Below the pieces are notes generated by a model. It did not search any database, was not told the DNA's origin, and was given only the letters and a program-made list of their open reading frames with translations. A DNA stretch of 60,000 bases from Malacoraja senta (Eukaryota). Where the stretch lies: the NCBI GenBank assembly GCA_038087875.1, contig CM075989.1, positions 20,152,001 to 20,212,000 of the forward strand. The letters are read 5' to 3'. Every line of letters starts with the position of its first letter. Position 1 is the stretch's first letter. A program made the translations under genes and the position numbers. Positions 15,224-52,227 of this stretch are shown piece after piece.

Positions 15224-15418
15224 TTATGATATTGCCATTGGAAGGAAATGAGATGATTTACTTTCTTTCTTTGTCCTTTTGCCTCTAATCGCTACTCCCT
15301 TTTGGTTCAAGGTTATAAACATTTGTTGGCCATTATGCGTCCACTTTGCAGAAGAATATGTATTGTAATTATTTTCCTCTATAAGCTCTCTAAAATTGCA
15401 GTCTTCGTTGCAGGTTTT
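15224..15418 (-). CDS. FGF7: FGF7 coding exon 3 (to stop codon)
   Basis: tttccacag|AAA ACC TGC... = [64 protein letters not shown]. Matches the FGF7 C-terminus. 289+104+195 = 588 nt. Confidence 0.97.
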
Positions 15419-17029
15419 CTGTGGAAACATGGAATATAAAATGTACATTAAAGCATGAGATAACAATATAAGCAACTGATGATGGCAATATTCAGAAATT
15501 ATTCCTGTCATGTATTGATTCCACATCCTCGATGATATAAATGGTTCCATTTACAATCTGGAGATGATTTTAAGCTGGTCTGTGTTGGTAGGCTTTAAAA
15601 ATAACCTGACTCTCTTAGACAGACACAAAAAGTTGTGGTAACTCAGCGGGTCAGGCGGCATCACTGGTGAAAAGGAATACAGTAGGTAATGTGTCAGGTC
15701 GAGACCCTTCTTCAGACTTCAGTTCTTTACCTCTCCGAAAGCAGCTAAATTTCCATTTTCATCGCTGATTTGAGTAGGTGCCAAGGACACCTGCTAAACT
15801 AATCTAGTGGAGCTTTTTCTTTAACATTACCTTATGGGCACCGGATAATGCAATTGCTACCCAAGTCTAGTTTCAACTCCTAGAAGGCTTTCTCACCAAT
15901 CAAAATGTTAGATTAAGTTGTTTATGTGGATCGAAAATTGGCCATAATATTTACCCATATCCTCAAGGAATGTTGAAACATATTGTGGCTGTAGATGTTT
16001 TCAAAAGGCAGAGCTTGCGTGCTTTAGTCACCCCACCTAAGAATTTCATTGTTCTAACTGGGACACATGACAATAAAACACTCTTGACTCTATAAAATTA
16101 ATATATTGTTTAGATATCTTGCACAATTCCTGGCAAGTGTAGTCACCTTGCTCCATCAAGCATAAGAAATGGCCATACCGGATTTCTTCCCCGATATACC
16201 CAAGACCAGTCTGAAATTAACCATGTGGTTGTCCTGACGTAAAAGGATACTTAATGATTTGTTTAAAAACAGGAGCAACCTGTGTTTGATGACAGGTTTA
16301 CTTAAACATTGATGAGCTATCCCCAGCCAAAATCAGAGTTATTGCATAAAAGCTCTAAACACGAGCTTGAATCATGCTATAACAGAGAGACATCTGTGGT
16401 CCAGCCACATGCAGCAATCCATGTACTTTTGCCAAACTTTTTTGTTTGGCTTGGTTGCTCGGAGAGGTGATGTTTCGTGACTATATTTGTCTCTGTACTA
16501 GATCTTTAAAATTCCTACTAAAATATATATATAATAATGAGACTCTCATCAGTAAATGCGAAAAATAATAGGTACATTAAATTTTAGTCTCCCATGATCA
16601 AATAGCAATCAATCCCAACTGTTGATTTAAATAGTGACTGGCTTTGGCATTTAAAATCATTTTTGTCCAAGATCTGTATTACCATATTTGTTACTTTAAT
16701 ATGGATTGTGTAAAGATTAAGTCAAGAGTCAGGAGTCAAGAGAGTTTTATTGGCATGTGTCCCAGATAGGCAATTAAATTCTTGCTTGTCATTATATATC
16801 ATTAAGTTGTTCAGTATCTGTTAAATTGTTCGTGTAGAAAAAGATTTGGATTCCTATACCAGTCTCAATTGTTTGTGTCATATCTTGTCTCTACAAGTTA
16901 AAATTAATCAAAGATGTCCGTGCAGGAACACCAAAGAACAATTTTATACATTGGTTTTAATTATCACCCAACAATATAAACATCGAATTCTCCAATTTTA
17001 GATAATTTACCTACAAACACACTCCTTCC

Positions 17030-20767: not shown

Positions 20768-20871
20768 CTTGCTATATAATTTCCCAGATTTGTTCATTGC
20801 TAAGTAATAGTCACTTTCTACACCTCTGATGGCAACTACTCCAACGGCCACAGTTCTGATTTCCAGAATAC
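20768..20871 (-). CDS. FGF7: FGF7 coding exon 2 (104 nt)
   Basis: Not in the ORF track. Minus strand reads tttcag|GT ATT CTG GAA ATC AGA ACT GTG GCC GTT GGA ... TTA TAT AGC AAG|gtaagt = (C)[34 protein letters not shown]. Canonical 104-nt FGF middle exon with phases matching both neighbours. Confidence 0.97.
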
Positions 20872-48543: not shown

Positions 48544-48832
48544 AGTAATTGCAGCTGGGATTAACCGTGCCTTTGATTTTGCCCTTTTTATCAATCCTCA
48601 GATAAAACTGTGTCCGACAGAAAAGTTTTCGTATTCTTACATCTCCACCTTCCATGTAGTCGTAACTTCTGGTGTGCCGCTCAGGACTGGTGGAACAGTT
48701 CACGCTTGCAGCTAGTTGTTCTGGAGTCATGTCATTGCAAGCGATAGACACATTCCCTGCTAGAAGAATACAATGAAAGTATAGTTTGTACAACAAAGTT
48801 GGCAGGATCCATATCTGCATCCATTTGCGCAT
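48544..48832 (-). CDS. FGF7: FGF7 (keratinocyte growth factor) coding exon 1 (aa 1-96 + 1 nt)
   Basis: Translates [96 protein letters not shown]. Signal peptide followed by the FGF7-diagnostic CNDMTPEQ and [15 protein letters not shown]. 289 nt, phase 1, GTAAG donor at 48543-48539. Confidence 0.97.
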
Positions 48833-48867
48833 TATAGTGCACTGCTCCGGGTTCTCTTGAGCGACAT
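48832..48867 (-). promoter_or_regulatory. uORF2 ([11 protein letters not shown]) whose stop overlaps the FGF7 start (TAATG)
   Basis: ATG TCG CTC AAG AGA ACC CGG AGC AGT GCA CTA TAA TG. The last A of TAA (48832) is the A of the FGF7 ATG. Confidence 0.7.
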
Positions 48868-49150
48868 GCTGCAATTTAAATGACAAATCGGATGAATGTT
48901 GCTAGTTTGGGGTCTCAGCTTCTGCCTGGATTCCGTGACCTTGGATCTCTTTTATTTGTGGCACTAGCAGTTTAGAATGTTTTTAAGCTTTCCTGAGAAA
49001 GTTTATGATGCTGAGCCAGGGTTTCTTCAGAGAAGTGATGCACTGTCAATTTTCACTATAAACAGTTCAGTTTGTAGTACTCTGGAATGTCTTGATCCTC
49101 TTTGCTATTAGAATTTTCCTCTTGTACAGAGAGTTTTGACGATAGTAAAG
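48833..49150 (-). other. FGF7: 5' UTR part of the ATG-containing FGF7 exon (acceptor position tentative)
   Basis: Candidate acceptor cttctgcttgcag at 49163-49151; an alternative is tcttttctag near 49313. ACCCGGAGCA...CACTATAATG before the start resembles human FGF7 as recalled. Confidence 0.5.
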
Positions 49151-49754
49151 CTGCAAGCAGAAGTATCACTTAACTTTAACAAGCCATTACAGTCAGCTGT
49201 TACAAATAAATTACAACCATGGCAACATGCTTGGAGGTGTATACCAATTTTTTTTTTTAAGTTCTAGTTAGTTGCCAGTTTTCACTTTAAAAAATAAATG
49301 TAAAACCCAAAACTAGAAAAGATAACTTGCTTTTCCAAATGTTGCTGTGTGCTACGATATTAGTCTTTTATCTGTAATTTAAAAAGTGTGATATGTGCAG
49401 CATGGAATATGTTCTACATTACTATTCCACTGCTGTTTCAACTGCTCGGCTAAACCCTGTTGCTTAATCAATCCTCCCGGCTTCTGTACACTTGTCATCT
49501 TGCATGCATTCATTCAAAAGTAATCACAACATATTTTATGTGGTAAAAATCAAATGCTTTCCATGGAATTTTCCCATGTTTCCTAAACACAATTCATGTT
49601 TTGCTGTATCGACTGGCTGTAAGCATTCACAACTACCTCAATGTCAATCCACATGTTTAACCTAAGCCAGTCTAATTCCCCCAAAAAAATTCCCTTGGCA
49701 AAATAGTTTTGTAGAAATAAATGCAATACTGTACAATTTCTGATAAAAACTTAC

Positions 49755-49930
49755 TTTTGTTTACGTTGAAGACAGACTGTGCACAGAAACAATCCATTGT
49801 TTTCCCTCTTCACATCATCAGCTTGTGTGTCATTGTGGACTATATCCCAGCCCAGGAAGATTCCAGCTGAATCATAATTGTTTCCATAAATCAAGTGTTA
49901 ACACGAGAGGGGTTTTCTGGGCATCATCAG
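49755..49930 (-). other. FGF7: Probable non-coding first exon (5' UTR) of FGF7
   Basis: Ends ...AAACAAAA|GTAAGT (donor 49754-49749). Contains TTGATTTATGGAAACAATTATGATTC, which I recall from the human FGF7 5' UTR. The 5' boundary is estimated from the TATA-like box. Confidence 0.75.
49840..49887 (-). promoter_or_regulatory. uORF1 in FGF7 5' UTR exon (METIMIQLESSWAGI*)
   Basis: ATG GAA ACA ATT ATG ATT CAG CTG GAA TCT TCC TGG GCT GGG ATA TAG read directly on the minus strand. Confidence 0.65.
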
Positions 49931-49953
49931 CCTGTTGTTGTGCAGTTCTGTTC

Positions 49954-51236: not shown

Positions 51237-51409
51237 AAGTGTTTAAGAAGGAACTGCAGATGCTGGAAAATCGAAGGTAGACAAAAGTGCTGGAGAAACT
51301 CAGCGGGTGCAGCAGCATCCTGAAGAGGGGTTTCGGCCCGAAACGTTTCCTATTTCCTTCGTTCCATAGATGCTGCTGCACCCGCTGAGTTTCTCCAGCA
51401 CTTTTGTCT
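51237..51409. mobile_element. Penelope-derived fold-back element with TSD
   Basis: Perfect 16-bp TSD ACTTTCCTATTATACA at 51221-51236 and 51410-51425. Confidence 0.85.
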
Positions 51410-52227
51410 ACTTTCCTATTATACATTTATTTTCATATCCTTCCCTCTGTGAAAGAACTACGAGTTAAGAGACTGACAAACATCCTACCAGTCCATAAAT
51501 ATTTCTAGAGCTACCGTCATGAACTACTTGAAGGTAGCACTTGGCATGTGCTAAGTGACCCACATCCTGATGCATTTTTCTCTTCGTTCCCCGACACATT
51601 TTCTACCCTTTTTCTCTGGGCAACTCAACCCAGTAAATTGCCCTCTAGACACTGTGTTCAATCTATCATACATCACTTGCCTCTCTTTTTTTCAAATAGC
51701 TTCATAGGAGGGCGACTAAGTTGATGAACAATCATCAGTCTACAATATTACCTTTGGATTACCAAAGCTACTCAAAATTGTAAATACTTTTTAACCTACT
51801 TGCTTGCAGTCATGATACAAGTATTTAAGTAATGGCATTTGCCTTACATTTTGCCACTCGAGCAATATTTCCAGTCATAAATCCAGATTTTCACACTCGG
51901 CTTGTTGTCTGTGAGTACATTTTTGAACTCCTCCACTATCAACCAGGCCAAACAATGAAAAGTGCACATTTGGTAAGAAAAATTACGTCGAATATAGCAG
52001 CTGTTAAGATCTTGAATTTTGTTTACCTGTAAAAGAAGTTTGAATGAAGCTCATCGAAATGGCGTTTAGTTTTCAACGACGAGAAATTATCTGAGAATAA
52101 GAGAAAACGGTCTAAATGTCTTTTAACTAACCTAACCTTCACTAAACTAACCTTGGTTGTGGGAAATTTGATAGGAATGTCCGGCAAGAACAAATTCAAT
52201 GGTCACTTACACTAATCTGCTCTAATA

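What the first reader, a model, noticed from the sequence alone, without database searches (positions are those of the whole stretch)
48832..48867. Stop-start (TAATG) uORF coupled to the FGF7 initiation codon
Seen: an 11-codon u[14 protein letters not shown] ends in TAA overlapping the FGF7 ATG. From recall, human FGF7 has ATG TTA TTC ATG AAC ACC CGG AGC ACT ACA CTA TAA TG (MLFMNTRSTTL*), with the same length, frame and overlap. Knowledge: UAAUG overlaps mediate termination-reinitiation in influenza B BM2, and overlapping uORFs repress leaky scanning. Inference: a translational control element conserved across jawed vertebrates.
Basis: partly seen in the sequence, partly recalled or inferred. 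Interest (0 to 1): 0.7.

Follow-up and report, generated by a model that had tools for sequence, protein, structure and literature searches.

The report
Ancient translation gate before FGF7
A tiny 11-codon reading frame ends on the start codon of this cartilaginous fish's FGF7 growth-factor gene and sits at the same place in a bird-like and a bony-fish copy, and it likely acts as an ancient brake on how much FGF7 protein is made.

Summary
On the minus strand, an ATG at 48867 opens 11 codons, and its TAA shares an A with the FGF7 ATG. Contigs from three close relatives splice it into the mRNA leader.

Conservation holds in DNA. A bird-like and a teleost-like locus have the same start (-35), length, frame and TAATG, and a rat primer shows TAATG. 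The peptide is not conserved. In 11 of 12 extended FGF7 predictions and 12 of 15 extended FGF10-like ones, the residues fit an ATG with A at -3. The FGF10-like ones lack the stop-start overlap (0 of 15).

The influenza-B analogy is not supported: there is no TURBS motif and no stable fold, and Denr knockdown leaves Fgf7 translation unchanged. Best reading: a repressive uORF passed by leaky scanning (0.6).

Against translation: the parts of three human Ribo-seq catalogues I could read list other FGF7 uORFs but not this one. Function is untested. This is a new member of a known kind, and an earlier scan note had already seen it in another shark.

The parts
48832..48867 (-). 11-codon uORF (ATG at -35, stop TAA); the conserved gate
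48830..48834 (-). TAATG: uORF stop overlapping the FGF7 start codon by one base
   Evidence: rat primer
48868..48874 (-). Conserved context of the uATG (TT at -42/-41, C at -39, A at -38 = Kozak -3 of the uATG); YAG-like in fishes
48544..48832 (-). FGF7 coding part of exon 2 (signal peptide and start of the FGF domain)
48833..49150 (-). Untranslated 318 nt of exon 2; holds one ATG (the uORF's) against 4.7 expected
49151..49754 (-). Intron 1, GT..AG, 604 nt, skipped in contigs of 3 of 4 presumed RNA runs of close relatives and in 0 of 4 other runs
49755..49942 (-). Non-coding exon 1 (5' end not mapped; at least to 49942) with 8 uATGs
49840..49887 (-). 15-codon exon-1 uORF (48 nt); start aligned in L001; same length as a human exon-1 uORF called translated
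   Evidence: orthology with the human ORF inferred
49795..49797 (-). Last exon-1 ATG; opens a 45-codon uORF in the usual splice form, or a signal-less FGF7 form if spliced to the acceptor at 48760
20768..20869 (-). FGF7 second coding exon (tblastn span)
15227..15430 (-). FGF7 last coding exon (tblastn span)

Best explanation
The 36 bases before the FGF7 start hold an out-of-frame uORF, kept at the same place in cartilaginous fish, bird-like and teleost-like DNA, that likely works as a last gate: scanning ribosomes would often start at it, would stop on top of the FGF7 AUG too close to restart, and FGF7 would be made mainly by ribosomes that leak past it. Shown: the uORF, its place in the spliced leader of close relatives, its conservation, A at -3 of its ATG, and the lack of peptide conservation. 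Inferred from back-translation: a homologous uATG in FGF10, 12 nt further upstream and without the overlap, which would make the gate older than the FGF7/FGF10 duplication. Inferred from the scanning model, untested: initiation at the uATG, loss of most ribosomes after termination, and shielding of the FGF7 AUG by the terminating ribosome.
For: (1) DNA: ATG at -35, 11 open codons and TAATG in the window, L001 and L002. 20 of 36 bases are invariant, against 7 and 3 of 36 in the two upstream blocks. Simulated survival of start, frame and stop at the local interior identity is 0.17 and 0.024 (about 0.004 if independent). (2) Proteins: 11 of 12 extended FGF7 predictions fit xAy-G at -35, with A and G forced in 11 of 11 while neighbouring bases vary. 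The Kozak -3 A of the uATG is forced in 11 of 11 and present in 3 of 3 DNA sequences. (3) No peptide constraint: 0-1 synonymous against 7-9 non-synonymous codon differences per pair; L002 has a stop in the FGF7 frame. (4) FGF10-like proteins carry the same motif in 12 of 15 (0 hits in 1084 background residues) with no overlap. (5) Reviews: overlapping or abutting uORFs repress and are passed by leaky scanning. Fgf7 translation is unchanged on Denr knockdown (log2FC -0.055, p 0.74), as reported for overlapping uORFs as a class.
Against: No direct sign that this uORF is translated. Ji 2015, Sandmann 2023 and the readable part of Yang 2024 list three other human FGF7 uORFs but not the -35 one; the three lists also share no FGF7 uORF with each other. 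The interior is more conserved than a start-stop gate needs (14 of 30 invariant; A at -11 forced in 11 of 11, CC at -18/-17 in 10 of 11), so another constraint exists. Pure repression does not explain why the stop stays exactly on the AUG. Only three DNA sequences span the uORF, and back-translation cannot tell ATG from ACG or TAA from TTA/TCA. No RNA of the window's own organism was laid.
Confidence: 0.6

Rival explanations
1. Coupled termination-reinitiation: ribosomes translate the uORF and restart on the overlapping FGF7 AUG without scanning, so the uORF feeds rather than blocks FGF7.
For: The exact TAATG is kept in 3 of 3 DNA sequences and a rat primer. T at -2 is forced in all 15 extended proteins, although losing the stop would still leave a repressive overlapping frame (next stop at +16 or +70). 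A short uORF could retain eIF3, as a review suggests for SLAMF1.
Against: No UGGGA within 150 nt in 3 of 3 species. No stable or shared structure: z-scores +0.5 to +2.2, no shared pair above 0.08 in all three. FGF10-like proteins never have the overlap (0 of 15). There is no distance for ternary-complex rebinding. No Denr effect, which is only weak evidence.
Confidence: 0.15
2. The block is conserved for a non-translational reason (alternative 3' splice site, RNA-binding site or DNA element in exon 2), and the ATG and TAA ride along.
For: Interior bases are conserved with no codon pattern. Pyrimidine-rich CAG lies just before the uATG in the window and L002. Annotated isoforms use several acceptors in this exon. 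The uORF is absent from the Ribo-seq lists seen.
Against: L001 has CAT, not CAG, there yet keeps the A and the ATG. The conserved block begins close to the ATG and has no indel between ATG and stop in 3 DNA and 11 protein-inferred sequences. No contig used that acceptor.
Confidence: 0.17
3. The uORF encodes a functional or ribosome-stalling peptide, or the region is an N-terminal extension of FGF7.
For: The last residue is Leu in 3 of 3, once through a synonymous change. Many gene predictions extend FGF7 or FGF10 through this region.
Against: Only the first Met and last Leu are shared by all three peptides, and non-synonymous changes dominate. L002 has a stop in the FGF7 frame inside the block. 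The window has no in-frame ATG after the stop at -72.
Confidence: 0.04
4. Chance: an AT-rich leader beside a conserved start codon.
For: The bare pattern occurs at chance level. 2.5% of shuffled leaders give such an overlap.
Against: Same position, length and overlap in three deep lineages, plus a paralogous motif in FGF10.
Confidence: 0.04

Closest known systems
Out-of-frame overlapping uORFs passed by leaky scanning (PMC10275272 section 13; e.g. Shank1 uORF3, PMC3922875 passages)
   Same: Short, out-of-frame AUG uORF that reaches the main start codon; start conserved, peptide not.
   Different: The overlap is a single base, so the main AUG is not passed. Conservation reaches cartilaginous fish and probably a paralogue.
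SLAMF1 long-isoform uORF4 with UGAUG overlap (described in review PMC5972666)
   Same: Cellular multi-uORF leader whose last uORF stop overlaps the main AUG by 1 nt.
   Different: SLAMF1's uORF has 29 codons and a TURBS-like sequence. Here there are 11 codons, UAAUG and no UGGGA.
TURBS-dependent termination-reinitiation of influenza B M1/BM2 and caliciviruses
   Same: UAAUG pentanucleotide.
   Different: Those follow long ORFs and need UGGGA motif 1 plus paired motifs 2/2*; none was found here.
Human FGF7 exon-1 uORFs in Ribo-seq catalogues (Ji 2015; GENCODE c15riboseqorf32 in Sandmann 2023; Yang 2024)
   Same: Same leader; they show that FGF7 uORFs are translated.
   Different: They are other uORFs; the -35 one is not listed.

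Membership tests
Repressive abutting/overlapping uORF (leaky scanning) | AUG in the mature 5' leader, out of frame with the main ORF | tested here: met
   (splicing shown in close relatives, not in the window's own organism)
Repressive abutting/overlapping uORF (leaky scanning) | Stop at or past the main AUG, leaving no scanning distance | tested here: met
Repressive abutting/overlapping uORF (leaky scanning) | Usable but imperfect start context | tested here: met
   A at -3, T at +4 in 3 of 3 DNA sequences
Repressive abutting/overlapping uORF (leaky scanning) | Ribosomes initiate on it | tested here: inconclusive
   not listed in the readable parts of three catalogues; full catalogues unreadable
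Repressive abutting/overlapping uORF (leaky scanning) | Removing the uAUG raises main-ORF output | not testable with these tools
   needs a reporter
TURBS-dependent termination-reinitiation | Stop and start overlapping (UAAUG/AUGA) or within about 20 nt | tested here: met
TURBS-dependent termination-reinitiation | UGGGA motif 1 upstream of the overlap | tested here: not met
   0 of 3 species within 150 nt
TURBS-dependent termination-reinitiation | Paired motifs 2/2* forming a stem that presents motif 1 | tested here: not met
   no stable or shared fold in -60..+45
TURBS-dependent termination-reinitiation | Downstream ORF depends on translation and termination of the upstream ORF | not testable with these tools
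   needs a reporter
Conserved-peptide uORF | Amino-acid conservation with excess synonymous change | tested here: not met
   0-1 synonymous against 7-9 non-synonymous per pair
DENR-dependent reinitiation target | Main-ORF translation efficiency falls on DENR loss | tested here: not met
   mouse Fgf7 log2FC TE -0.055, adjusted p 0.98 (whole-gene value, one cell line)

The most novel reading that the evidence does not exclude
FGF7 carries a TURBS-free cellular stop-start coupler conserved since the origin of jawed vertebrates. Ribosomes reinitiating after the translated exon-1 uORFs would be caught by the -35 uORF and handed to the overlapping FGF7 AUG. The conserved interior bases would act as the tether or timer, making FGF7 output switchable (for example under eIF2-alpha stress or wounding). 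The FGF10 paralogue would have kept only the plain repressive form.
Probability: 0.15. Interest if true: 0.78.

Novelty: new member of a known kind. Interest (0 to 1): 0.45.

Why it matters
FGF7 (KGF) and FGF10 are dose-sensitive mesenchymal signals for epithelial growth and repair (established knowledge). A uAUG held at a fixed place from cartilaginous fish to birds, and probably shared with FGF10, points to an untested translational control of their dose and to leader positions where variants could matter. Such depth is uncommon: a 478-species survey found only 1.82% of human uORF peptides of 10 or more residues conserved in fishes (PMC7889888, passage; that figure is for peptides, not starts). 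The FGF7/FGF10 pair, with and without the overlap, is a natural test of what a cellular UAAUG does. The class of mechanism is well known, so surprise is moderate.

Tried and rejected
No whole genome is held for this window. A genome-contig scan gave no relative (10 candidates, 0 confirmed). The metagenome scan gave 3 loci of 218 candidates; L003 was dropped for lack of upstream DNA.

The run search listed no holder on record as RNA. The RNA label of X15, X17, X18 and X20 is a guess, supported only by the skipped intron. The 8 runs laid match at mostly 95-99% identity, too close to test conservation. They showed one non-synonymous change inside the uORF (X17) and no listed change at start or stop, but withheld 31 rows.

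Conserved RNA structure: not found. A weak 4-pair hairpin over the AUG appears in the consensus and in two of three species, without compensatory change. TATAAT as a promoter box was considered and not tested. The GA-rich termination-pause motif (PMC13341110, passages) was read and not applied.

Kozak 1991 and the RAR-beta2 paper gave no usable body text. PMC8270899 concerns an E-box variant in the FGF7 leader, not this uORF. A second primer with TAATG is labelled human but resembles the rat pair, so it is not counted as human. FGF22 was not tested.

Full report
1. The observation. The feature lies on the minus strand. The stretch 48867-48832 is an ATG-started frame of 11 codons ([11 protein letters not shown]) ending in TAA, whose last A is the first base of an ATG at 48832. 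That ATG opens FGF7: 93% identity to a shark FGF7 cluster and 75% to coelacanth, with further coding exons at 20869-20768 and 15430-15227. The organism is therefore a cartilaginous fish by protein likeness. The pattern alone is unremarkable: 3 matches in the window against 3.8 expected, and 2.5% of shuffled leaders give such an overlap with an in-frame uATG.

2. It lies in the mRNA. Contigs from 3 of 4 presumed RNA runs of close relatives join 49755 to 49150 across a 604-nt GT..AG intron (one with three differing letters at the joint). None of 4 other runs does. The leader is at least 506 nt, with 8 ATGs in exon 1 and only this one in the 318 untranslated nt of exon 2, where 4.7 are expected. 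The bird-like and teleost-like leaders have additional ATGs in that part under trial splice sites, so the AUG-free stretch is not a conserved trait.

3. Conservation in DNA. A scan of metagenome contigs gave 3 FGF7 loci from 218 candidates; two have upstream DNA. L001 is bird-like and L002 teleost-like by their proteins. Both have ATG at -35, 11 open codons and TAATG; their peptides are MLFMNTQNTAL and MLFIDPHCIVL. In ungapped 36-nt blocks anchored on the start, 20 bases are invariant across the uORF, 7 and 3 in the two blocks upstream, and 26 and 14 in the first two coding blocks. In a simulation using the uORF's own interior identity, start, frame and overlapping stop survived in 17% (L001) and 2.4% (L002) of 200,000 trials. 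A published rat FGF7 primer also reads TAATG at the start (PMC3739786, one passage). Human DNA was not retrieved.

4. Conservation seen through proteins. Of 127 FGF7-like proteins, 15 are predicted with extra residues upstream in the FGF7 frame. All 15 have Ile just before Met, which forces A at -3 and T at -2 and allows TAA. Twelve are long enough to reach -35, and 11 have Tyr then Val, Asp or Gly there, compatible with ATG. The exception (P0008) is joined to exon 1 nearer the start. For one search I dropped P0008 and the three 2-residue extensions. In the 11 left, A(-35), G(-33) and A(-38, the Kozak -3 of the uATG) are forced in all, while -37, -36 and -32 vary. Back-translation cannot exclude ACG for ATG or TTA/TCA for TAA.

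5. What is not conserved, and what is unexplained. The peptide is not conserved: 0-1 synonymous against 7-9 non-synonymous codon differences per pair, and L002 has a stop in the FGF7 frame, excluding an N-terminal extension there. No stable fold was found (z +0.5 to +2.2) and no UGGGA within 150 nt. Yet 14 of 30 interior bases are invariant and the length never changes, so a further nucleotide-level constraint exists that I could not identify.

6. The paralogue. An earlier scan note (e1-8642137) claimed counterparts in FGF10 and FGF22; I tested FGF10 only. Of 90 proteins examined, 15 had upstream extensions. Twelve carry the same four-residue signature as FGF7, four codons further upstream, implying a uATG at -47. 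The signature had 0 hits in 1084 background residues. Nine of the 12 come from frogs or a frog-like unnamed source, two from one species, so they are not independent; a falcon and a clupeiform fish also carry it. The residue before Met is Thr in 14 and Arg in 1, never Ile, so none can have TAATG. By inference, the uAUG predates the FGF7/FGF10 duplication and the stop-start overlap is particular to FGF7.

7. Functional data in print. Ji 2015 lists one human FGF7 uORF, 48 nt in exon 1, conserved in mouse and among the uORFs translated over three-fold better than the main frame (supplement rows). The window has a 48-nt uORF in exon 1 whose start aligns with L001; orthology is inferred. Sandmann 2023 lists a spliced 23-codon FGF7 uORF and no FGF7 entry among 221 highly translated 3-15-residue ORFs from tissues. 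Yang 2024 lists a 9-nt uORF at -76 in a file that was cut when stored. None lists the -35 uORF. This counts against the finding, but weakly: the lists share no FGF7 uORF, and footprints next to a start codon are hard to assign (my inference). In NIH3T3 cells, Denr knockdown left Fgf7 translation efficiency unchanged (supplement row), and that paper finds overlapping uORFs insensitive to DENR (passages).

8. Mechanism. By the scanning model, 40S subunits that leak past or reinitiate after the exon-1 uORFs meet an AUG with A at -3, 35 nt before an FGF7 AUG of similar strength. Those that start there terminate with the stop over the FGF7 AUG. Reviews hold that reinitiation after short uORFs needs distance to rebind the ternary complex, and that a 1-nt overlap likely precludes it (PMC10275272, section 13 read whole; PMC5972666, passages). 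FGF7 would then come mostly from leaky scanners, and the uORF would cap output (0.6). Direct coupling stays possible because the overlap itself is conserved (0.15). A splice, RNA-binding or DNA element could explain the block instead (0.17). All functional steps are untested.

9. Novelty. Searches of the held library for FGF7 with uORF (2 papers), KGF/FGF7 with upstream-codon terms, overlap motifs and FGF10 with uORF (none of 15 listed mentions FGF10) showed no description of this element. Most hits were seen only as listings. The library lacks most subscription papers, including early KGF cloning work, which by my recall discussed upstream ATGs. Verdict: a real, deeply conserved new member of a known kind, already noticed once in this scan. 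Interest 0.45.

Noticed in passing
window 49797-49755 joined to acceptor at 48760 (minus strand): The last exon-1 ATG has counterparts in shark, bird, crocodilian, snake, marsupial and fox predictions and in a human Ribo-seq uORF labelled primate-young. Spliced to an acceptor inside the signal peptide it gives an open, signal-less FGF7 form like the annotated bamboo-shark isoform P0020 and several bird isoforms. No contig showed this joint.
   Followed up: partly
window 49887-49840 (minus strand): A 15-codon exon-1 uORF of the same length as the human one called highly translated and conserved in mouse (Ka/Ks 0.24). Its start is aligned in L001 (11 codons there) and absent in L002.
   Followed up: partly
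window 50089-49929 (minus strand): Promoter-proximal block 78-80% identical to L001 and L002, with CAGCTG, TGAGGTCA and an AT-rich TTTAT box; motif names and roles not tested.
   Followed up: no
window 51273-51415: 47-nt inverted repeat, 98% complementary, 49 nt apart; by recall it resembles a short interspersed element of cartilaginous fishes.
   Followed up: no
L001 at -26; FGF10-like proteins P0322-P0346: A second ATG in the uORF frame three codons after the first in L001. A compatible His-Glu pair occurs in 5 of 11 extended FGF7 and 10 of 15 FGF10-like proteins; it is absent in the window and L002.
   Followed up: partly
window 48820-48818 (minus strand): An in-frame ATG at codon 5 of FGF7 in the window and L002, not in L001, could serve as a second start that keeps the signal peptide.
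   Followed up: no
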